NCBI GenBank assembly: GCA_964430845.1
Contig: CAYSHS010000001.1
Location: forward strand, 20,475 to 54,825
Length of the DNA: 34,351 nt
Direction: 5' to 3'
Origin: an uncultured Pirellulales bacterium
GTDB taxonomy: Bacteria > Planctomycetota > Phycisphaerae > Sedimentisphaerales > Anaerobacaceae
Under the pieces are notes generated by a model. That model had not been told where the DNA came from, did not search any database, and saw only the letters and a list, made by a program, of their open reading frames with translations. Below, one piece after another: positions 1,884 through 32,453 of this stretch; the first letter of the stretch is position 1, and the number at the start of each line of letters is the position of its first letter. Position numbers and translations under genes: made by a program.

Positions 1884-3674
1884 ATGGCAGAGGCTATAAT
1901 GAAATATGTCTGGCGAATACTAAGTCCCTTGTGGCTGCTGGGACCGATTTTCGACAAGGAGCTGAGAGTTTCCAGCCGCAGACGTAGAAATTATGTTCTG
2001 CGTTTCACATATATTGCATTGCTTTCGACTATTTTATTCTTTTTCTGGGCAAATGTCGTTAAAACAAGCGGCTACAGCCTGTATCAGGCTTCGAGGATGG
2101 CCCGTGCAGGGCAGTCCATAATTTCCTTTATCGTCTGGTTTCAATTTTGTGCCACCCAGATAATAGCTGTAATTATGCTCAGCACTTCGATAAGCGACGA
2201 GATATATAATAAAACGCTCGGCTTATTGATGACTACACCGATAAATAGTTTTCAGATTGTAATGGGCAAGCTGCTCAGCAAGCTGCTTCAATTGATTTTA
2301 CTTATGGTTATCAGTCTTCCCTTGTTAGCCGTTGTCCGTGTATTCGGCGGAGTTCCCTGGAATTACATTATCTCAAGTCTTTGTCTTACTCTTGTAACTG
2401 TCATTTTTATAGGCTCTCTTAGTCTGTTCTTTTCGATATTCTCTCAGAGGGCTTATGTTGTGATAATAGTGACGATTATCAATTTGATTGTAATTTTCGC
2501 AGTAATACCACTAATATCAATAGCAATTTTTGGACTGATGCACTGGAGTAAAGTAATAGTTGAAAAAACTTTTTTAGCTGTTATTCTCCAGCCGAATCCT
2601 TATGTGCAAATGTATATCAATATGGTTAAACTGTTGGAGCCGAATTCCGCAGGCCGCATTCCATTTTTTTCATGGCAGTTGAATTGCGGTATATTAGCAG
2701 CTGCTTCTTTATGTATTCTTTTATTTTCTACTATTCTTGTTCGCAGGATAGCATTGCGTCAGGCAACAGGGCAATTATTATTCTCACAACCAAAGAAAAG
2801 AAACAAGTGGGAGAAATATGGCGTTCCTTCCCGGGAGCCTTACATTAAAATAAGAACGGTCAAGGACCCGCCTGTAATTTGGAAAGAGTTGAGAATGCCT
2901 ATGTTAGGCAGGCATAAAATATTCGCGTCAATATGTATTTTTCTTGTTTTGAGCCTGCTGTTTTTTATTTATTGGATGTGCGCCAGGGAAAGGGCATTGG
3001 ATGACAGGGACATTCATACGCTGTTTGTCATTGCTTTTCTGATTTTGGGAATTATTTTTACTGTTATCCTTACTTCAACGGGAATTACTACCGAAAAGGA
3101 GGCCCGTTCCTGGCCTATACTGCTTACGACTACGCTGGATGACAGGCAGATTCTGTTTGGTAAATATGTCGGCACTCTAAGGCGATTGATGCCTGTCTGG
3201 ATTCTTTTGCTTGCGCATGTTGTCATCTTCAGTCTTGGCGGGATTATTAATCCTTTAGCCGTCATTCAAATTACTATTTTAATAGCATGGATAGTGACAT
3301 TTCTTTTTTGTACGGGAGTCTATTTCAGCTCACGCTTTAAGCATACTACGACTGCTGTTATTGTAAATTTTATTTTTGCCGCTGTGATCTGGATTTTCGT
3401 TCCATTGCTTCTTTTCGTATTGGACCAGTTTGTTCATATAACTGATTTAACAGGTTATGCAGAAGCTTATATGGATACTAATCCGTTTCTCCATGCAGTA
3501 GTGATAATCGGCGCCAACACCAATACATCAACCGGAAATTATGATTGGACCAGTTTTCATGCCAATCCCTTTATGTCAACAATTTGGATGCTTGCCTGCC
3601 TGGCAGGCTATACTTTACTGGGCCTGGTTTTTGCCTGGCGCGCTAAATGCAGGTTCAGGAAAAATATTTTTTAA
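1884..3674 (+). CDS. Fused double ABC-2-type transporter permease, paralog 2
   Basis: 596-aa polytopic ORF with the same motif set: GPIFDKELRVSSRRRRNY, ISDEIYNKTLGLLMTTPI, PPVIWKEL, ITTEKEARSWPILLTTTLDDRQILFGK and tail FAWRAKCRFRKNIF. It starts 3 nt after the previous stop. Confidence 0.85.
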   Translation: MAEAIMKYVWRILSPLWLLGPIFDKELRVSSRRRRNYVLRFTYIALLSTILFFFWANVVKTSGYSLYQASRMARAGQSIISFIVWFQFCATQIIAVIMLSTSISDEIYNKTLGLLMTTPINSFQIVMGKLLSKLLQLILLMVISLPLLAVVRVFGGVPWNYIISSLCLTLVTVIFIGSLSLFFSIFSQRAYVVIIVTIINLIVIFAVIPLISIAIFGLMHWSKVIVEKTFLAVILQPNPYVQMYINMVKLLEPNSAGRIPFFSWQLNCGILAAASLCILLFSTILVRRIALRQATGQLLFSQPKKRNKWEKYGVPSREPYIKIRTVKDPPVIWKELRMPMLGRHKIFASICIFLVLSLLFFIYWMCARERALDDRDIHTLFVIAFLILGIIFTVILTSTGITTEKEARSWPILLTTTLDDRQILFGKYVGTLRRLMPVWILLLAHVVIFSLGGIINPLAVIQITILIAWIVTFLFCTGVYFSSRFKHTTTAVIVNFIFAAVIWIFVPLLLFVLDQFVHITDLTGYAEAYMDTNPFLHAVVIIGANTNTSTGNYDWTSFHANPFMSTIWMLACLAGYTLLGLVFAWRAKCRFRKNIF

Positions 3675-24159: not shown

Positions 24160-24191
24160 AAAAATAGAAGGGCGGTTTTTACGCCGCCCTT
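24160..24191 (-). terminator. Rho-independent terminator of dnaK
   Basis: Minus-strand AAGGGCGG-CGTAAAAA-CCGCCCTT hairpin (24168-24175/24184-24191) followed by CTATTTTT. It lies about 45 nt after the dnaK stop. Confidence 0.7.
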
Positions 24192-26518: not shown

Positions 26519-27853
26519 TTACTCGGCCGGGCTTAATCTGAATAGGGCTACATCGTGGGAGACGACGTTGCCTGTGTAATTGTCTTTCGTTGTGCCCAGG
26601 TCTTTTTTGGCCCAGATGTCGCGGACTTTATAAGTTTTGCCTTCAATCGCTTCAAGGTCGCTCCAGTTGAGTGACATTTGTGCATCGTTCGGACTGTCGT
26701 TTAACATGCAGACTGCCCAATTGCCATCTGAAAGCTCTTTTACCCAGACTTCTCTGCCTTCTTCATCTATAACGCGATAACCCTGCTTGCCGAGCGGGTC
26801 CTGGTCGAGTGCGATTACATCTTTGTCAGTAAGAACTTTAAGAATATCATCGGTCATAATTCTCAAGTCGTTGCCCATCATTAACGGGGCGGCTAACATG
26901 CACCAGAAGCTGAAATGAGCCTTTGATTCGGCATATGTTAAGCCGCGATTGCCGACTTCCAGCATATCCGGGTCGTTCCAGTGATCCGGTCCTGCGTATT
27001 GTTCGAGTTTTTGTTCTGTTTGCCTGTCGAGAATATCTTTCCATCCATTTCCATAACCTCCCCTTCCTCTGCTATTAGTGGAGTATCTTGCCGAAATATC
27101 ACCTGTTGTTCGCCATAAATGTGCAATTGGAGCTGCCCATTCCCATGGCTTTGCGGTGCCCCATTCGCACATACTTAATACAATTGGCCTGTTTGCGGCC
27201 AATAGGGCGCTACCGAAAGTTCTATATGTTTCCTGCGCATTGGCAGAGCCTGTATTACACCAGTCGTATTTAACATAATCGACGCCCCATGAAGCATATA
27301 ATCTTGCATCTTCATATTCATGGCCGCGCCCGCCGGGATAACCTGCACATGTTCTTGTTCCTGCATCGTTATAAATGCCGAACTTAAGACCCAAGCCATG
27401 AATAAAATCTCCGAGAGCTTTCATGCCGCTCGGAAATTTTTGAGGATCAGCTACAAGCTGTCCATTTGCATCTCTTTCTCTTGTCATCCAGCAGTCATCG
27501 AGAACTACATACACATAACCGGCTTCTTTCAGGCCTTTTGTAGCAATTATTGTTGCGGTCTCTTTTATCAAATCTTCACTGATATTTCCCTGGAAGGTAT
27601 TCCACGTATTGAATCCCATCGGGGGAGTTAATGCCAGACCCTGATATTTATAAACTTGCGTCTGTCCTCTTCTGCGACCGCCTCCGCCGAAACCTGCGAA
27701 GCTTCCACCACCAGGTGCGCCGGCGCCTCCGGGAGCTATTCCGCCGCGACTATTTCTGCGGACACCTGCGCCACCAGGTGCGGCAGCGCCTCCGTCCTGA
27801 GCCAGTGCGATAGTTGTTAAACAAAGAATTAATGCAATAATCAACTTTCTCAT
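26519..27853 (-). CDS. Secreted alpha-galactosidase, glycoside hydrolase family 27
   Basis: LTPPMGFNTWNTF...GYVYVVLDDCWM and YVKYDWC motifs of GH27. I place the start at ATG 27853 (MRKLIIALILCLTTIALAQ signal peptide). The ORF-track start at 27940 is a TTG upstream of a non-signal-like leader. Confidence 0.9.
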   Translation of the reverse strand: MRKLIIALILCLTTIALAQDGGAAAPGGAGVRRNSRGGIAPGGAGAPGGGSFAGFGGGGRRRGQTQVYKYQGLALTPPMGFNTWNTFQGNISEDLIKETATIIATKGLKEAGYVYVVLDDCWMTRERDANGQLVADPQKFPSGMKALGDFIHGLGLKFGIYNDAGTRTCAGYPGGRGHEYEDARLYASWGVDYVKYDWCNTGSANAQETYRTFGSALLAANRPIVLSMCEWGTAKPWEWAAPIAHLWRTTGDISARYSTNSRGRGGYGNGWKDILDRQTEQKLEQYAGPDHWNDPDMLEVGNRGLTYAESKAHFSFWCMLAAPLMMGNDLRIMTDDILKVLTDKDVIALDQDPLGKQGYRVIDEEGREVWVKELSDGNWAVCMLNDSPNDAQMSLNWSDLEAIEGKTYKVRDIWAKKDLGTTKDNYTGNVVSHDVALFRLSPAE

Positions 27854-28110
27854 GGTACTACTCCTAAAAAAATAACAATAATATTTTATTTTTTTTATCG
27901 GGTGTTCACAAAACAAATGAGGCCGCATTGTCTGAAGCAATTTCGTTAAATATGGATAAAAACCTCAAATACTGTAAACCCTGACTAATTTTATAATACG
28001 TTATGACATACGAAAAAGTAAAAGTTATTGTATTCCATCTTTTTCCTGATTGCAAATGCAATTCCATGCGGAGGCCAACAAATTTATATGGAAAAAAAGA
28101 GTTTTTTTTA

Positions 28111-28139
28111 TTGACATATTCGATTATTTAGGCTAATAT
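28111..28139 (+). promoter_or_regulatory. Near-consensus sigma-70 promoter of sRNA-like unit 1
   Basis: TTGACA (28111-28116), 17-nt spacer, TAATAT (28134-28139), preceded by an A/T-rich tract. No protein ORF lies downstream. Confidence 0.6.
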
Positions 28140-28145
28140 ACGACT

Positions 28146-28220
28146 ATTGAGATTCGATCCCACGCCCCTGTGGTTATCTCGCTTTTTCCTCTCTCCCTCC
28201 GCTACACAGGGGCTTTTTTT
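28146..28220 (+). ncRNA. sRNA-like unit 1 (~75 nt, ends approximate)
   Basis: It lies downstream of the promoter above. 9-bp stem GCCCCTGTG/CACAGGGGC (28164-28172/28205-28213), a 32-nt loop containing CCTCTCTCCCTCC, then T7 (28214-28220). Confidence 0.5.
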
Positions 28221-28229
28221 CTTTAGCCT

Positions 28230-28255
28230 GTCACCTGCCATAGTCACCTACCATA
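28230..28255 (+). repeat. Tandem 13-nt direct repeat GTCACCTRCCATA x2
   Basis: GTCACCTGCCATA (28230-28242) is immediately followed by GTCACCTACCATA (28243-28255), 12 of 13 identical. It starts 10 nt after the unit 1 T tract. Confidence 0.8.
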
Positions 28256-28399
28256 GGAGTTAAAACCAGAATAATCGTTACAATCAGTATCTCTGTTGGA
28301 ACTTAAATATAGAGAACTAAAAAACAATGTTGTTAATTGAAAGGTAAAAAACTCAGCAAAAAAAGAAATAATATATCTGCTTTAGGCTTATATAGCCTT

Positions 28400-28479
28400 T
28401 ACGATGCAGGGCGTTCCTGTATCGCCCAGGATGGGTCGGCGAAAAACCTTTTCCTTGGTGATTACGCTGACCCTTTTTT
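28400..28479 (+). ncRNA. sRNA-like unit 2 (~80 nt, ends approximate)
   Basis: The -10-like TTATAT (28388-28393) sits within TTTAGGCTTATATA, 13 of 14 identical to the unit 1 -10 region. The -35 is poor. 9-bp stem GGGTCGGCG/CGCTGACCC (28433-28441/28465-28473, one G-U), a 23-nt loop with CCTTTTCCTT, then T6. Confidence 0.3.
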
Positions 28480-28590
28480 CGTAAATTGCTGAAAAAATGA
28501 AAATATGGCCGAAAAATGCAGAATATTTCTTTAAAAATACGTAGTTACCACAATAGACAAAACTGCAGGATAAGTGTGTAATATCACCTG

Positions 28591-28654
28591 TGGTTTTTCA
28601 CATTTGTTTAAGCCCCTGCAATAGATGACTCCTTCTGGCAGGGGCTTAGTTTTT
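28591..28654 (+). ncRNA. sRNA-like unit 3 (~65 nt, ends approximate)
   Basis: TAATAT at 28579-28584, with TAGACA 19 nt upstream. 10-bp stem AAGCCCCTGC/GCAGGGGCTT (28610-28619/28638-28647), an 18-nt loop with CTCCTTCT, then AGTTTTT. The stem core is shared with unit 1. Confidence 0.4.
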
Positions 28655-28677
28655 ACTGAACTTTTGCAAAACTCTTG
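28655..28677 (+). repeat. Intergenic motif copy B: ACTGAACTTTTGCAAAACTCTTG
   Basis: It lies directly after the sRNA-like unit 3 T tract and contains the 12-bp perfect palindrome CTTTTGCAAAAG. Confidence 0.8.
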
Positions 28678-28921
28678 TTTTTAAATAGAAATACCGTTGT
28701 CATATTTCTATTGCAGATTATTGGCAGCCGGAGAATATAAACGAGATTATCAACGAATACTGCTTTGTGGGAAGATACATCGATATTTTCATCAAGATGA
28801 AATGAGGGCATTTGCTTTGAGGTATTCCTCTGCCCAGAGGTTTCTGACGGTATAAAATTCGCAAGGCTTCGGCTTGTGATTTATTTTTTCTAATTCTTCA
28901 AATATTTAGAATGGGGTTCCT

Positions 28922-29722
28922 TTAATTTAAATAATTCTCCATAAATTCATATAAACTTAATTCTCCGAGTCCCAGAATGCGCATAAGCTCGCCTGTATCT
29001 GAAAAATCGATTCTTTCATTTGGATTATAATATGCGAAAGCGGCCTTCCAAATGTTACTATATTCGGGATTTTCAATTGCGGCTTTTGCAAATACCTCAT
29101 TACCACCGCGAATATTCAGATAAGCATTTGCATCCCGTATTTTTATGTAATCCGTATTGCTTTTCGTGTATGCAAGTGCGGCTTCTGTGGTCTGGTCCTC
29201 GTTCCATGTGCTATGCTGAACAGCATGGATTCGCTTAGTTGTGTCAAATTTCGGCATTTGTTCCTTAATATTTTTAATAACCGCGGCTGTTATATCAGAT
29301 TGCCCGCCTTCCTTGATCCAGATGTCACCGCCTGCTTTCAGTGTTTTACTCCAGCGCTTCGTAAGCTCATTTATTGCCTCATCGCGAGAAGTATGAGCGG
29401 CAAGCCAGCCGCCGCATTCGTTCCACGCCGCATCCATGACCGCATCGGAATTTGGATTGAAACCCCCAGCGTTTTTTCCGTAGGCTCCCGATACCGCGAC
29501 GATATGTGCTTTTATCCATTTTTTGCCGTACATCGTTTGCAGAATAGTTCTGTCCGCTGCTGCACTGTGTCCATCATCTTTATCTGGTGCATGGTCGTAG
29601 TGCAATGACAACAGGTCTTTATTCGGATTGAATCCGGATTCCACGATACTTAGTTTTTGCTGTGGCATGCAGGAAACGCACATAACAACACACAAAAATA
29701 AGGGGAAAATTGTTTTTTTCAT
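28922..29722 (-). CDS. Lipoprotein of unknown function (weak nucleoside-hydrolase-like N-terminal motif)
   Basis: Signal/lipobox-like MKKTIFPLFLCVVMCVSC. The segment DHAPDKDDGHSAAAD vaguely recalls the DxDxxxDD motif of IU-nucleoside hydrolases. No confident family. Confidence 0.55.
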   Translation of the reverse strand: MKKTIFPLFLCVVMCVSCMPQQKLSIVESGFNPNKDLLSLHYDHAPDKDDGHSAAADRTILQTMYGKKWIKAHIVAVSGAYGKNAGGFNPNSDAVMDAAWNECGGWLAAHTSRDEAINELTKRWSKTLKAGGDIWIKEGGQSDITAAVIKNIKEQMPKFDTTKRIHAVQHSTWNEDQTTEAALAYTKSNTDYIKIRDANAYLNIRGGNEVFAKAAIENPEYSNIWKAAFAYYNPNERIDFSDTGELMRILGLGELSLYEFMENYLN

Positions 29723-29757
29723 TTTTCACATTCCTTTTCTTTTTTGATTAAATAATT

Positions 29758-29904
29758 TCAAAGCCCGGTTTTTACAAAAATTAACCAGAACACGAATGTA
29801 ATGATACTGATAATTAATCCGGCTCTCGCCTGTGTGCACTTCCTGTCAATAATCATCGCAATCACCCCGAAAAAGAGCGCCAATGGTGCGCTGGCAGATT
29901 TCAT
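29758..29904 (-). CDS. Candidate 48-aa two-TM small protein
   Basis: Not in the ORF track because it is under 60 aa. ATG at 29904 is preceded by GGAGG (29909-29913) at 4-nt spacing. It translates to MKSASAPLALFFGVIAMIIDRKCTQARAGLIISIITFVFWLIFVKTGL and ends 35 nt before the lipoprotein gene start. Confidence 0.3.
   Translation of the reverse strand: MKSASAPLALFFGVIAMIIDRKCTQARAGLIISIITFVFWLIFVKTGL
29770..29784 (-). repeat. Weaker motif copy F: plus strand TTTTACAAAAATTAA
   Basis: The 15-mer is identical to part of copy E (12143-12157). It ends 48 nt upstream of the lipoprotein gene start (29722) and overlaps the 3' end of the candidate small ORF. Confidence 0.5.
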
Positions 29905-30356
29905 GAATCCTCCAAGGATTCCGAGTGATCCGCCTCACCCAAAGCCTAAACATCCAACAAATTCCTGCGCGATAATAATCCATGACAGAACTGACAATAC
30001 AATACTGATTTGTCCTAATTCACTCGATTTCACTGCATTTATATCCTTAAAATATATTTAAGAGTATAACTTTACTATCACAATAAAATCAAATAAGTTT
30101 TTTACTTATTATTTATTGTCCTGACACAATCATATTATTACCAGTTTAACTATTGTTCCGATAATAGTAGTGGAGCTCATCAATTTAACAGTTTTTTAAT
30201 TCCTCCGGCATTTGAGACGAGACATATAGTTTTTTCTAAAGCAGCGATTTATATCAGTCGATATTGTAGTCGGTGGGTATTTTTATTGAATGAATACGGT
30301 TCCTGATTAAAGAAAACAAAATAAAAAGGGCTTAATAATACCATGAAAGGATTTTA

Positions 30357-32453
30357 GTGATGAGATATATTCATTTTAAAGTTCTTATTTGTTTGGTGGT
30401 GCTTTTCATAACACCAGTACTTGGTGAATCAATTAATAGTATATCGTCAACTCCCAATAGTCCGGAAAGCGTTTCACAAGAGGAAAACATCAGCGAACCA
30501 AATTATTTCGATTTGAGCCTGGAAGATCTTTTGAATCTTAAGGTTTCAACTGTATCCCGTGTCGAGGAAGATTTGGATAGTGCTCCCGGCAGTGTCTATG
30601 TCATTACGCGTGAAATGATAAAAAGACGCGGTTACAGCAGTTTGAAAGATGCCTTGCAGGTTGTTCCCGGTTTTATTGTATTTCACAGAGATCTTGATTT
30701 TGTTGGTGCCGTTCGCGGCCTGGCTGCAAATGATAATGAAAAATTTACTTTGCTGATCAACGGAATTGAAACGAACCAGATGAACGAGCCGGATTTCCTG
30801 AACGGTCCGATTAACCTTGATAACGTAGAGCGTATTGAAGTCATAGTAGGTCCTTCTTCTATATTTCAGCCTGCCAATACCCTGGTAGCAACTGTAAATG
30901 TCATTACCAGAGAAGTAGATGGAATTGAATCGGTTTTTGGCACGGGAAATTACCTTGATTATGACATGACTGTCATGGGCGGGAAAAAATGGAGTGACAG
31001 GAAAAAATTTACCATTTCGGGGACACTTGAGCGAAGGAAAGGTTTTGATGCATGGGATACCAACAGGTCTGTTTCCCCCATGACGGCGTTTGCGGGAACG
31101 GATACCACAGGTGAATCAACTATGCCCAACCATTTTATCGTTGCCACAGGCCGATACGAGGATTGGTCACTGCAGCTCTTTTCATACCAGTCAAGTTTTG
31201 TGGAATTGCGTTTGGGCGGAAGCACGCATGAAAGCCTGGATACCGATTACAGTGATATCATGCGAGGCGGAACAATCAAAAACGAGCACGATGTCTCTGA
31301 AAACCTCTCAACCATAACAACATTTACGGCGGTACAAAAGCAAAGCGTCAGGTCAACATCAACCGATCCATGGCAGCATTTGGAGCAAATGGATTACAAT
31401 GGTGAGCTTGGATTGAAGTATAAAGGCTTTGCCAAACATGAAATACAGACGGGAATACAAGGCATTTTTGAAGATAATGGTGATTGCTATTTTGATATTG
31501 ACGGGCAAACGAAGCAAACCTTTTTTGATAAAAACACATGGGGTATTGGTTTTTATATTGACGATACCTACCAATACAGTGACAGGTGGAAATTCGTCGG
31601 CGGCGTACGAGCCGACCGTAATACCATTTTGGGTGAAGATAGTGATTTTTATTGGGGCGGACGTGCGGCAGCGATTCTCAAAGCTAATAAACAATGGACT
31701 ACAAAGTGGATATATAATAAAACGGTTCGCATGCCGTCTCCCTTGGCCGCACTGAATGAGATTTGGGGAAAAGATGCTCCAAGTGCTCCTTCGTGGGGTA
31801 GTGGATCACCCAATGCGGAAAACCCGGAAGAACTGAGCACTGTCGAATGGGCAAACATTTTCTATCTGGATAGAACGCGCCTGTCGGCAACTGTTTATTA
31901 TCAAAAGCTGAAGGAATTCATTACATGGGGAGCACCACATACGAATGTTGGAGACTACAGCGGCTGGGGTGTCGAATTGAATGTTCATCAAAAAGTCACG
32001 GATACGTTATCACTCTGGAGCAACGGTACATATATTAACTCGGAATTCAAGACGTATGACTCGTATGATGCCGTCGCTCAAGCCGGTGATGCCCATCGTG
32101 CGGTTGACAATGATAATCGTTTAATTGGCGCACCTTCGACAGTAATAAACGGTGGTTTTGATTGGGATATTACAAAAAACGCAGTTCTCACATCCGCGGT
32201 GCGTTACTTCACGGATCAGCCTGTTGAAAGGACATATGATACCGGAACAACGACCAAGTTTTCTCATGTCAATAATATGTTTTACCTGGATGCGACGTTA
32301 TTGTTTAAGGATGTTTTCCGAAAAGGATGGGACATCCAAATCGCAGGGAAAAACATCTTGGATAATGACAAGTATGTTGCAGGTCCATGGCTGACTGGTG
32401 AATACCGACCGCGCGGTGCAAGTATCGAGCTTAGGGCCTTTTGGAGATTCTAA
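30357..32453 (+). CDS. TonB-dependent outer-membrane receptor
   Basis: Signal peptide and plug-domain motifs (VSTVSRVEEDLDSAPGSVYVITREMIKRRGYSSLKDALQVVPG, IERIEVIVGPSS). A long beta-barrel region follows, with a terminal aromatic residue (...ELRAFWRF). The start is GTG 30357 or ATG 30360. Confidence 0.9.
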   Translation: MMRYIHFKVLICLVVLFITPVLGESINSISSTPNSPESVSQEENISEPNYFDLSLEDLLNLKVSTVSRVEEDLDSAPGSVYVITREMIKRRGYSSLKDALQVVPGFIVFHRDLDFVGAVRGLAANDNEKFTLLINGIETNQMNEPDFLNGPINLDNVERIEVIVGPSSIFQPANTLVATVNVITREVDGIESVFGTGNYLDYDMTVMGGKKWSDRKKFTISGTLERRKGFDAWDTNRSVSPMTAFAGTDTTGESTMPNHFIVATGRYEDWSLQLFSYQSSFVELRLGGSTHESLDTDYSDIMRGGTIKNEHDVSENLSTITTFTAVQKQSVRSTSTDPWQHLEQMDYNGELGLKYKGFAKHEIQTGIQGIFEDNGDCYFDIDGQTKQTFFDKNTWGIGFYIDDTYQYSDRWKFVGGVRADRNTILGEDSDFYWGGRAAAILKANKQWTTKWIYNKTVRMPSPLAALNEIWGKDAPSAPSWGSGSPNAENPEELSTVEWANIFYLDRTRLSATVYYQKLKEFITWGAPHTNVGDYSGWGVELNVHQKVTDTLSLWSNGTYINSEFKTYDSYDAVAQAGDAHRAVDNDNRLIGAPSTVINGGFDWDITKNAVLTSAVRYFTDQPVERTYDTGTTTKFSHVNNMFYLDATLLFKDVFRKGWDIQIAGKNILDNDKYVAGPWLTGEYRPRGASIELRAFWRF

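What the first reader, a model, noticed from the sequence alone, without database searches (positions are those of the whole stretch)
28111..28655. Tandem trio of sRNA-like units whose oversized hairpin loops display CU-rich anti-Shine-Dalgarno-like tracts
Seen in sequence: the ~1 kb gene-free gap between the GH27 gene and the next lipoprotein gene holds three plus-strand units built alike. Each has a -10-like hexamer (TAATAT 28134, TTATAT 28388, TAATAT 28579) followed by 25-40 nt. A 9-10 bp GC-rich stem comes next (GCCCCTGTG/CACAGGGGC; GGGTCGGCG/CGCTGACCC; AAGCCCCTGC/GCAGGGGCTT), then a T run (T7, T6, AGT5). Unit 1 has a near-consensus TTGACA-17-TAATAT promoter. Units 1 and 2 share TTTAGGCT(A/T)ATATA over the -10, and units 1 and 3 share the stem core GCCCCTG...AGGGGCTT, so they look like diverged paralogs. 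Ordinary intrinsic terminators have 3-8 nt loops. These loops are 18-32 nt, and each exposes a pyrimidine tract complementary to GGAGG/AAGGAG-type ribosome-binding sites: CCTCTCTCCCTCC, CCTTTTCCTT and CTCCTTCT. Inference: a family of ~65-80 nt trans-acting RNAs that pair with SD regions, comparable in logic to C-rich-loop sRNAs such as RsaE/RoxS, or that mimic the 16S anti-SD. I recognise no known RNA family here.
Basis: partly seen in the sequence, partly recalled or inferred. Interest (0 to 1): 0.7.

Follow-up and report, generated by a model that had tools for sequence, protein, structure and literature searches.

The report
Conserved small RNAs with pyrimidine loops
Three small non-coding RNA genes sit in a row in a gene-free gap of this planctomycete genome. 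The first belongs to an undescribed RNA family whose 25-base pyrimidine-rich hairpin loop is identical in more than a hundred environmental contigs, and it most likely silences messenger RNAs by pairing with purine-rich ribosome-binding regions.

Summary
The three plus-strand hairpin-plus-T-run units at 28146-28220, ~28400-28479 and ~28589-28654 are the three strongest terminator-like hairpins in the 34-kb window. Each sits in a sharp island of conservation in Sedimentisphaerales relatives: 87-99% identity against 35-57% in the flanks and ~77% in the neighbouring GH27 gene. Conservation starts near the predicted start sites and ends at the T-runs, so these are independent small-RNA genes. Rfam 15 has no match.

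Unit 1 belongs to a large family. Its loop, CUCGCUUUUUCC(UC)UCUCCCUCCGC, is identical in more than 120 metagenome contigs, while the closing stem covaries (11 of 12 pairs change on both sides, 96% of cells paired). Relatives carry tandem paralogs on the same strand. These have the same stem and other CCUCC-containing loops, and 28 of 31 follow an ECF-sigma-like promoter.

In unit 3 the CU tract is the conserved part of the loop. In unit 2 the CU tract is not conserved; the 5' hairpin and linker are.

The best reading is trans-acting sRNAs whose seed lies in an oversized terminator loop, like RepG, the cuckoo/CcsR RNAs and RsaE. No target was found. This is a new family of a known kind.

The parts
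28111..28139 (+). Unit 1 promoter: TTGACA (28111-28116), 17 nt, TAATAT (28134-28139)
   Evidence: Best sigma-70-like match in 27000-30500. TTGACA and TAnnAT are kept in L001-L004 while the surrounding sequence diverges.
28146..28220 (+). Unit 1 sRNA, about 75 nt: 5' leader, 9-bp stem (28164-28172 / 28205-28213), 32-nt loop (28173-28204) and U7 (28214-28220)
   Evidence: Mean identity 99% across the window and L001-L004, against 57%, 69% and 42% for the upstream, promoter and downstream segments. Model R1 scores it 71 bits. The fold shows a fully open loop.
28178..28202 (+). Invariant loop core CTCGCTTTTTCCTCTCTCCCTCCGC, containing the CU tract at 28188-28200 and a CCUCC motif
   Evidence: Unique in the window. 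Exact matches, with or without the extra TC, occur in more than 120 metagenome contigs, in 2 viral contigs and in 5 of 5 cysK-selected contigs.
28262..28335 (.). Conserved block between units 1 and 2, role unknown (possibly a regulatory site)
   Evidence: 67% identity against 38-53% in its flanks, window compared with L003 and L004. No match elsewhere.
28388..28393 (+). Unit 2 -10-like hexamer TTATAT (TTAAAT in relatives). No convincing -35 element.
   Evidence: The segment 28388-28399 is 89% identical to relatives.
28400..28479 (+). Unit 2 sRNA candidate, about 80 nt: 9-bp 5' hairpin (28402-28410 / 28416-28424), linker CCCAGGAU, terminator stem (28433-28441 / 28465-28473) with a 23-nt interior, then U6
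   Evidence: Fold z-score -5.1. 87% identity in L003 and L004, with G-U to A-U changes that keep both stems. The CU tract in the apical loop is not conserved. Model R2 finds it only in the window, L003 and L004.
28534..28582 (+). Unit 3 promoter region: upstream element AAAATACGTAGTTACCACAA, then TAGACA (28554-28559), 17 nt, TGTAAT (28577-28582)
   Evidence: 81% identity in L003 and L004. The same upstream element directly follows unit-1-type hairpins in L094, L106, L118, L138 and L147.
28589..28654 (+). Unit 3 sRNA, about 66 nt: small 5' hairpin (28589-28602), 12-bp stem (28608-28619 / 28638-28649), 18-nt loop, then U5
   Evidence: Fold z-score -5.1. 89% identity in L003 and L004. The stem is the same as in window-type unit-1 family members (R1 16 bits through the stem only; reciprocal weak R3 hits).
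28626..28638 (+). Unit 3 conserved CU tract, TGACTCCTTCTGG
   Evidence: Invariant in three genomes while the 5' half of the loop varies in sequence and length. Found only in L003 and L004 among 200 loci.

Best explanation
The gap holds three independently transcribed small non-coding RNA genes on the plus strand. Units 1 and 3 are minimal one-hairpin riboregulators. Each has a sigma-70-type promoter, a short 5' leader and a G+C-rich hairpin that terminates transcription. The oversized, unstructured loop of that hairpin presents a pyrimidine-rich seed: a U-rich half followed by a CCUCC- or CUCCUU-type half. The seed is proposed to pair in trans with purine-rich RNA, most plausibly Shine-Dalgarno or translation-initiation regions, blocking ribosome binding. 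The closing stem protects the RNA and keeps the seed exposed.

Unit 1 belongs to a family spread across Sedimentisphaerales (Planctomycetota) with an invariant loop. In other members of the order, paralogs with the same stem and different CCUCC loops sit in tandem behind ECF-sigma-type promoters. This suggests a stress-inducible battery next to a constitutively promoted founder. Unit 2 is a separate, lineage-restricted sRNA whose functional part is probably its 5' hairpin and linker, not the CU tract.

Shown: the genes exist as conserved promoter-to-terminator units, the stem covaries, and the loop is under sequence selection. Inferred: transcription itself, action in trans, and pairing with SD-like targets.
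For: 1. Conservation islands coincide with the predicted transcripts. Unit 1 is 99% identical, unit 2 87% and unit 3 89%, against 35-57% in the spacers. The adjacent GH27 coding sequence is ~77% identical at the nucleotide level.
2. The -35 and -10 elements are kept upstream and the T-runs are kept downstream.
3. There is no plus-strand gene upstream or downstream. Both flanking genes are on the minus strand.
4. In 114 distinct unit-1-family sequences the 12-bp stem is paired in 96% of cells. 11 of 12 pairs change on both sides, 0 of 500 shuffles reach this, and slid controls collapse to 21-57%. RNAalifold independently predicts the same stem and an unpaired loop.
5. The loop is also identical in samples not chosen by loop sequence. 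These are five GH27-syntenic genomes and five of five cysK-selected contigs with enough flank.
6. Paralogs: about 38 extra R1 hits of 16-52 bits lie on the same strand within 0.3-1.5 kb in 0.6 Mb of Sedimentisphaerales loci. A control of 0.87 Mb from other phyla gave one hit at 15.8 bits.
7. All paralog loops carry CCUCC, and 28 of 31 are preceded by GAACYT-N14-19-CGTA.
8. In unit 3, selection falls on the CU tract specifically.
9. Genes in the window mostly use AAAGGA or AGGAG-type SD motifs, which are complementary to UCCUU and CUCCU.
10. There is precedent for seeds in C/U-rich terminator loops (RepG, PMC8295292). There is also precedent for a conserved anti-SD loop motif with freely covarying stems (cuckoo family, PMC4615179).
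Against: - No expression data are available, so transcription is inferred.
- No target was identified. Translation-initiation regions of the 27 window genes do not pair better with the loops than coding background does. The best hits (-20.3, -14.0 and -16.4 kcal/mol) are unremarkable for units 1 and 2 and only marginal for unit 3.
- There is no perfect complement of 12 nt or more to the unit-1 loop in 0.82 Mb of related DNA, apart from remnants of the gene itself.
- The divergent cysK leader is not complementary.
- An invariant stretch of ~25 nt is longer than typical sRNA seeds (my knowledge). It could instead point to a protein or RNP partner.
- The count of more than 120 identical loops comes from an exact-pattern search, so it says nothing about how often the loop varies.
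- The CU tract of unit 2 is not conserved.
- The unit-1 fold z-score is only -2.3, because the loop is open.
Confidence: 0.55

Rival explanations
1. Unit 1, and perhaps its paralogs, is a protein-binding or decoy RNA rather than a base-pairing regulator. The invariant pyrimidine loop would be a high-affinity site that titrates or recruits a protein that binds single-stranded pyrimidines, such as ribosomal protein S1, a cold-shock-domain protein, Rho or an Sm-like/Hfq protein. Alternatively it is part of a housekeeping RNP.
For: About 25 consecutive loop nucleotides are invariant across lineages whose stems have flipped. That is more than typical sRNA seeds need (my knowledge). Unit 1 has a near-consensus, apparently constitutive sigma-70 promoter. 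The gene appears to be used as an integration site, as tRNA and tmRNA genes are. No mRNA target was found. The loop is bipartite, with a U5 half followed by a CU half, and could hold a U-binding chaperone site.
Against: No candidate protein is linked in the neighbourhoods, and the neighbours vary. Paralog loops differ freely apart from CCUCC and U-rich stretches, which fits diversified seeds better than one protein site. The closest analogues with CU-rich loops act by base pairing.
Confidence: 0.2
2. The conservation reflects DNA-level function or mobile-element traffic. On this reading the unit-1 hairpin is mainly an attachment site for integrases, or a phage-borne module spread horizontally, not a functional host RNA.
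For: Partial 3' copies of the gene exist in L120, L155 and L131. Gene content downstream of the gene is variable and phage-like, including a terminase-like ORF with a weak Terminase_6C Pfam hit. Two IMG/VR viral contigs carry the hairpin next to a tRNA-Met.
Against: Integration sites are usually chosen because the host gene is already conserved (my knowledge: tRNA and tmRNA genes). Host promoters are conserved at the right distance, and conservation starts at the predicted start site. Both stem arms covary, which is an RNA-level constraint. The window lineage shows vertical inheritance in synteny with GH27, with a lineage-specific UC insertion. Units 2 and 3 and the ECF-driven paralogs have no such association.
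Confidence: 0.08
3. They are cis-acting elements such as attenuators, riboswitch-like leaders or plain terminators that serve neighbouring genes.
For: Each unit ends in a hairpin plus T-run. Unit 1 keeps synteny with GH27 in five genomes.
Against: No plus-strand ORF lies upstream or downstream in the gap. On the minus strand the hairpins lack a T-run. GH27 promoter-like sites lie between 27883 and 28056, so its mRNA should not overlap unit 1. Family members sit in unrelated contexts, next to cysK, tRNAs or phage-like genes. There is no Rfam cis-regulatory hit.
Confidence: 0.04
4. The units encode small proteins.
For: Mechanical ORFs overlap them: 28147-28263 (+, 38 aa), 28128-28247 (-, 39 aa) and 28337-28492 (+, 51 aa).
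Against: Conservation stops at the T-runs while the ORFs run on into unconserved sequence. Relatives have indels that are not multiples of three upstream of unit 2. Variation follows base pairing, not codon position.
Confidence: 0.02

Closest known systems
RepG sRNA of Helicobacter pylori
   Same: It is a small, conserved, abundant sRNA whose C/U-rich terminator loop is the seed that pairs with a purine (G-repeat) tract in an mRNA leader (PMC8295292). The design logic is the same: the terminator hairpin doubles as the display for a pyrimidine seed.
   Different: There is no sequence relation, and no Rfam match here. RepG is restricted to Helicobacter. Here the loops are 18-32 nt, the family spans a planctomycete order, it occurs in tandem paralog arrays, and the target is unknown.
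Cuckoo RNA family (RSs0680/CcsR1-4, alpha-r14, NfeR1) of Alphaproteobacteria
   Same: Hairpin loops carry a conserved anti-SD-like motif (CCUCCUCCC) while the stems vary through compensatory changes. The family is multi-copy (PMC4615179). The pattern of conserved loop and covarying stem is exactly what one search shows here.
   Different: Cuckoo RNAs have 2-4 adjacent hairpins within one RNA, each with a 9-nt motif. Here each RNA has one hairpin, with its own promoter and terminator. The conserved unit-1 loop is ~25 nt and does not contain CCUCCUCCC. The phylum differs, and there is no Rfam hit.
RsaE/RoxS and other C-rich-loop sRNAs of Firmicutes
   Different: Those carry several CCCC motifs in a multi-hairpin RNA of about 100 nt, in Firmicutes. 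No Rfam match to RsaE here. The motifs here are CU-mixed.
ECF sigma(E)-dependent sRNAs (MicA, RybB, MicL) of enterobacteria
   Same: In related Sedimentisphaerales, 28 of 31 paralog hairpins follow GAACYT-N14-19-CGTA. This resembles the ECF promoter consensus of an AAC-type -35 and a CGT-type -10 (my knowledge; MicL background in PMC4102768, listed).
   Different: No such promoter occurs in this window. Units 1 and 3 have sigma-70-like promoters. There is no sequence relation, and a link to envelope stress is inferred only.
Canonical intrinsic terminators
   Same: A G+C-rich stem followed by a T-run.
   Different: The loops are 18-32 nt rather than 3-8 nt. There is no upstream gene to terminate. 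The loop sequence itself is conserved.

Membership tests
Any Rfam 15 family | Covariance-model score at or above the family's gathering threshold | tested here: not met
   No match in the whole window at gathering thresholds. In 27800-29000 at E<=10 there are only chance-level hits of 15-26 bits against gathering scores of 39-100. In 20 related loci at E<=1, nothing covers the hairpin.
Cuckoo / CcsR / alpha-r14 sRNAs | 2-4 adjacent hairpins in one RNA, each loop carrying CCUCCUCCC | tested here: not met
   Each unit has one terminator hairpin with its own promoter. The loops read CCUCUCUCCCUCC, CCUUUUCCUU and CUCCUUCU, and none contains CCUCCUCCC. Feature definition taken from PMC4615179.
Cuckoo / CcsR / alpha-r14 sRNAs | Conserved loop motif with stems varying through compensatory changes | tested here: met
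   The unit-1 family has an identical loop, and 11 of 12 stem pairs change on both sides. This is a shared behaviour, not membership.
RepG-like terminator-loop sRNAs | The C/U-rich loop of the terminator hairpin is the target-binding site | not testable with these tools
   The anatomy fits: a CU-rich, predicted-unpaired terminator loop that is under selection. Binding cannot be tested, and no target was found.
RsaE/RoxS | Match to the Rfam RsaE model, with multiple CCCC motifs | tested here: not met
   No RsaE hit. No unit contains a CCCC motif outside its stem.
Trans-encoded base-pairing sRNA (general kind) | Independent transcription unit (own promoter and intrinsic terminator) in an intergenic region, conserved as a unit | tested here: met
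   Promoter and terminator are kept in relatives, and conservation is confined to the region between them. Transcription itself was not observed.
Trans-encoded base-pairing sRNA (general kind) | A conserved single-stranded seed complementary to conserved sites in target mRNAs | tested here: inconclusive
   A conserved unpaired seed candidate is present. Target complementarity was not found in the limited sequence available.
ECF-sigma-dependent sRNAs | ECF-type promoter (AAC-type -35, CGT-type -10) directly upstream | tested here: not met
   GAACYT-N14-19-CGTA has 0 matches in the window. It is met for 28 of 31 paralogs in other loci.
Ordinary intrinsic terminator of a protein gene | Lies just downstream of a same-strand gene and has a short loop | tested here: not met
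   There is no plus-strand gene in 27854-28921. The loops are 18-32 nt.

The most novel reading that the evidence does not exclude
Unit 1 is not a gene-specific riboregulator. It would be an order-wide, constitutively made housekeeping RNA whose invariant ~25-nt pyrimidine loop acts globally on translation, either as a competitor or mimic of the 16S anti-SD tail or as a decoy for a pyrimidine-binding translation factor. In many relatives a second UCCUCCUUU element follows the hairpin, and by my recollection of the usual 16S 3' tail sequence it resembles that tail. The ECF-driven paralogs would then form an inducible global brake on strong-SD mRNAs under envelope stress. Phages of these bacteria would carry their own copy, as seen in L201 and L202, to tap into the system or to integrate into it.
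Probability: 0.12. Interest if true: 0.8.

Novelty: new member of a known kind. Interest (0 to 1): 0.6.

Why it matters
My searches of the held literature found no sRNA work on Sedimentisphaerales or Phycisphaerae. Sedimentisphaerales MAGs and contigs in this analysis come largely from sediment metagenomes and are poorly studied.

This locus gives a concrete, well-bounded sRNA family. It has a covariance model (R1), clear promoters, strong covariation and an invariant loop that can be used directly as a probe or for target capture. The family shows a very compact sRNA design, in which a single terminator hairpin carries the seed in its loop. It also points to an ECF-sigma-controlled battery of anti-SD-like paralogs, which would link extracytoplasmic stress sensing to translational control in a phylum with very large ECF repertoires (my knowledge). 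Finally, the gene seems to be an integration hot spot and is copied on phage-like contigs, which makes it useful as a marker for mobile elements in these genomes.

Tried and rejected
- **Rfam.** The whole window at gathering thresholds, the gap at E<=10, and 20 related loci at E<=1 gave nothing for the hairpins.
- **tRNA/tmRNA.** None in the window.
- **Source contig.** Exact look-ups with the window's GH27 and DnaK proteins found nothing on record.
- **Coding potential.** Rejected, because conservation stops at the T-runs, relatives have indels, and variation follows base pairing.
- **Targets in the window.** Duplex energies of the three loops against 27 translation-initiation regions are no better than coding background.
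- **Targets in related DNA.** A k-mer search for complements of the unit-1 loop in 0.82 Mb found only remnants of the gene itself.
- **cysK leader as a cis-linked target.** Not complementary.
- **ECF-type promoter in the window.** Absent.
- **Homologues of units 2 and 3 beyond L003 and L004.** BLAST, pattern search, models R2 and R3, and one viral scan found none in the sequence held.
- **Pseudoknot in unit 1.** The 5' leader (UUGAGAU) could pair with the loop (AUCUCG) in the window lineage. Leaders in other lineages lack the complement, so I did not adopt it.
- **Literature.** No paper mentions the loop sequence, and none was found on sRNAs in these organisms.
- **Limits.** I therefore could not map the phylogenetic limits of the family or the distribution of units 2 and 3.
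Full report
**1. What is in the sequence**

The 1068-nt gap at 27854-28921 lies between two minus-strand genes. One is a GH27 alpha-galactosidase gene (26519-27853; Pfam Melibiase_2, E = 2e-69), whose start faces the gap. The other is a 266-aa ORF with a lipoprotein-like N-terminus (28922-29722), whose end faces the gap.

TTGACA-17-TAATAT at 28111-28139 is the best sigma-70-like match in 27000-30500. I scanned the whole window on both strands for hairpins with loops up to 44 nt followed by a T-rich tail. The three units are the only ones with at least 9 bp and 7 G-C pairs, and all three lie within 500 nt on the plus strand. The ordinary bidirectional terminator after dnaK (24168-24191) has a 6-8 nt loop.

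As RNA, unit 1 folds into a 9-bp stem with a completely open 32-nt loop (z = -2.3). Units 2 and 3 each have a 5' hairpin plus the terminator hairpin (z = -5.1 each, 0 of 200 shuffles as good). Rfam 15 finds nothing at gathering thresholds, and only chance-level hits at E<=10. There are no tRNA genes in the window.

**2. Who it belongs to, and the unbiased conservation test**

The GH27 protein finds its closest relatives (73-83% amino-acid identity) in MAGs labelled Sedimentisphaerales, Phycisphaerae or "uncultured Pirellulales" (L001-L007). BLASTN of the gap against these loci, which were selected through the protein and not the RNA, gave a clear result. The unit-1 segment matches at ~88% in L002-L004, counting promoter and flanks (76% over a longer stretch in L001). 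The GH27 coding sequence is only ~77% identical at the nucleotide level.

In the alignment the -35 and -10 hexamers are kept. From the predicted start (A28146) to the end of the T-run the sequence is 99% identical in five genomes. The neighbouring segments are 57% (upstream), 69% (promoter) and 42% (downstream) identical.

Units 2 and 3 are found in L003 and L004, displaced by 0.8 and 3.4 kb from unit 1. They show the same island pattern:
- Unit 2: 87% identity.
- Unit 3: 89% identity.
- Unit 3 promoter: 81% identity.
- Spacers: 35-53% identity.

The few substitutions inside stems keep pairing (G-U to A-U in both unit-2 stems, U-A to U-G in unit 3). For unit 3 the conserved promoter is TAGACA(28554)-17-TGTAAT(28577), preceded by a conserved element, AAAATACGTAGTTACCACAA.

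These patterns are what independent small-RNA genes look like. They are not expected for terminators, spacers or small ORFs. The mechanical ORFs overlapping the units run on into unconserved sequence, and relatives have frame-breaking indels.

**3. Unit 1 belongs to a large family**

I scanned public metagenome contigs with the loop pattern CTCGCTTTTTC-N0-2-CTCTCCCTCCGC. With the earlier loci this gives 114 distinct sequences.

The loop is by construction identical in these hits. The enclosing stem is not:
- GCCCCUG(U/C)GG / CC(A/G)CAGGGGC in the window type.
- CAGGGCUGAGG / CCUCAGCCCUG in the most common type.
- GGGGCUCCUAGG / CCUAGGAGCUCC in a third type.

On the 12-pair stem, 96% of cells are standard pairs. 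11 of 12 pairs show changes on both sides, 0 of 500 column shuffles reach the observed values, and sliding the 3' partner by 1-3 columns drops pairing to 21-57%. RNAalifold independently predicts the same stem and leaves the loop unpaired.

Most members have a strong promoter of their own, for example TTGCTT-17-TATACT with an upstream TG.

The count of 120 is ascertained by loop sequence, so I took a second independent sample. In the common type the gene is divergent from cysK (16 loci). I fetched contigs through cysK proteins at 89-91% identity. All five with enough flank carry the RNA with the identical loop. The names attached to these cysK proteins place this type in Planctomycetota too: Sedimentisphaerales, Phycisphaerales, and Planctomycetes bacterium RBG_13_50_24. 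Twenty of the loci scanned against Rfam at E<=1 gave no family for the hairpin.

**4.

A covariance model of the family (R1) scores window unit 1 at 71 bits. It scores unit 3 at 16 bits through the stem alone, and unit 2 not significantly.

In 0.6 Mb of Sedimentisphaerales loci, R1 finds the primary copies plus about 38 weaker hits (16-52 bits). Nearly all are on the same strand and within 0.3-1.5 kb of a primary copy, often two or three in a row. A control of 0.87 Mb from other phyla gives a single 15.8-bit hit.

The weaker hits are hairpin-plus-U-run units that share the lineage's stem (GGGCUGAGG / CCUCAGCCC). Their loops are 24-29 nt, U-rich at the 5' side and CU-rich at the 3' side, and always contain CCUCC. 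Examples are UUUUUAAACCCUCCUUUCCUCCUUG and UAUUAAACUUCACUCCCCUCCUCCUGA.

28 of 31 are directly preceded by GAACYT-N14-19-CGTA. This matches the general ECF-sigma promoter pattern of an AAC-type -35 and a CGT-type -10 (my knowledge). Further examples with other stems follow unit-1-type genes in L131 and L186. The window itself has no such promoter. Its units 1 and 3 look sigma-70-dependent.

The upstream element of the unit-3 promoter directly follows unit-1-type hairpins in several other contigs. So the adjacency of a unit-1-type gene to that promoter is also conserved.

**5. Which parts are under selection**

- **Unit 1:** the whole RNA, above all the loop CUCGCUUUUUCC(UC)UCUCCCUCCGC.
- **Unit 3:** the 3' half of the loop, UGACUCCUUCUGG, is invariant. 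The 5' half varies in sequence and length.
- **Unit 2:** The 41 nt comprising the 5' hairpin and linker are invariant apart from one pair-preserving change.

Models of units 2 and 3 find no further homologues in the sequence I hold.

**6. Mechanism**

The anatomy has four elements: a promoter, a short leader, a strong hairpin that must act as terminator, and an unstructured, sequence-constrained pyrimidine loop. Together these match a trans-acting sRNA whose seed sits in the terminator loop.

Two precedents come from the literature. [quoted passage not shown] The cuckoo/CcsR family has a conserved anti-SD-like loop motif over freely covarying stems (PMC4615179).

Window genes mostly carry AAAGGA or AGGAG upstream of their start codons, and these are complementary to UCCUU and CUCCU.

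The target step is inferred, not shown:
- Translation-initiation regions in the window do not pair better than coding background.
- No complement of 12 nt or more to the unit-1 loop exists in 0.82 Mb of related DNA, other than remnants of the gene.
- The cysK leader is not complementary.

An invariant 25-nt loop is longer than typical sRNA seeds (my knowledge). I therefore keep a protein-binding or decoy function as the main rival (0.2).

**7. Mobile elements**

Downstream of the common-type gene the neighbours vary. They include a terminase-like ORF in 20 loci (weak Terminase_6C hit) and paired small ORFs in 10 loci, while cysK upstream is constant.

Truncated 3' copies of the gene occur in L120, L155 and L131. 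Two IMG/VR contigs carry the hairpin right before a tRNA-Met. This looks like use of the sRNA gene as an integration site, as happens with tRNA and tmRNA genes (my knowledge).

It cannot explain the conservation by itself. The promoters, the exact start of conservation and the covariation of both stem arms are RNA-gene features. The window lineage also shows vertical inheritance with a lineage-specific UC insertion.

**8. Verdict**

Unit 2 is a different sRNA, and SD pairing remains untested.

The kind, sRNAs with pyrimidine-loop seeds, is known. The family, its order-wide invariant loop, its one-hairpin design and its ECF-promoted paralog arrays are new.

One feature remains unexplained. Paralogs within a lineage share the stem sequence, while across lineages the stem of the unit-1 type flips but the loop stays the same.

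Noticed in passing
L120 801-883; L155 around 3532-3546; L131 about 150 nt after 1299-1379; neighbourhoods of L081-L200: The unit-1-type sRNA gene looks like an integration hot spot. cysK upstream is constant, but downstream genes vary: a terminase-like ORF in 20 loci and paired small ORFs in 10. Truncated copies of the 3' half of the gene, from mid-loop to tail, occur nearby.
   Followed up: partly
L201 1501-1580 and L202 10487-10566 (IMG/VR contigs): Two predicted viral contigs carry a full unit-1-type hairpin with the identical loop. It sits directly after the first ~34 codons of a C5-methyltransferase-like ORF and directly before a tRNA-Met, among phage-like genes. It could be attP or a phage copy of the host sRNA.
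   Followed up: partly
L081, L085, L099, L110, L126, L150, L156 and others (positions): An ECF-sigma-like promoter, GAACYT-N14-19-CGTA, sits immediately upstream of 28 of 31 paralogous CU-loop hairpin RNAs in related genomes. It is absent from the window.
   Followed up: yes
window 28262-28335: A conserved block between units 1 and 2 (67% identity against 38-53% in its flanks, in L003 and L004). It contains GAATAATCGTTA and TGGAACT...ATATAGA. I recognised no promoter or RNA structure in it.
   Followed up: no
window 28534-28559; L094, L106, L118, L138, L147: The element AAAAATACGTAGTnnCCACAATAGACA upstream of unit 3 recurs right after unit-1-type terminators in other contigs, but the sequence transcribed downstream differs there. 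It may be a shared regulator-binding site plus -35 element.
   Followed up: partly
window 28660-28921, including 28859-28890: The rest of the gap is not conserved in L003 or L004. It holds a fourth plus-strand terminator-like hairpin, TCGCAAG-GCTTCGG-CTTGTGA followed by TTTATTTTTT, 30-60 nt beyond the stop of the minus-strand 266-aa ORF. There are also only short mechanical ORFs of 48-52 aa.
   Followed up: no
L003 8202-8282 and L004 10549-10629: A second unit-1-type copy, of the loop type lacking the extra UC, lies in L003 54 nt downstream of a tRNA-Glu. In both loci it lies just upstream of an ORF that I read by eye as crcB-like, and no obvious promoter of its own is visible. It may be co-transcribed with the tRNA.
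   Followed up: partly
A3 alignment; Paralogs within one lineage share the same stem sequence, while the stem differs between lineages, with four consecutive G-C to C-G flips. This may reflect concerted evolution or a lineage-specific factor that recognises the stem.
   Followed up: no
common-type loci, e.g. L089 8702-8782, L127 2021-2101, L203 3698-3778: In the common type the hairpin is followed by U(U/A)UCCUCCUUU(U)AUC, a second CCUCC element, rather than a clean U-run. By my recollection of the usual 16S rRNA 3' tail sequence (...GAUCACCUCCUUUCU, not checked here), it resembles that tail.
   Followed up: no
window gene starts; window 27640-27800: SD-like motifs in this organism are mostly AAAGGA or AAGGA at -8 to -14. 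The GH27 protein has a long G/A/P-rich low-complexity stretch after its signal peptide.
   Followed up: no
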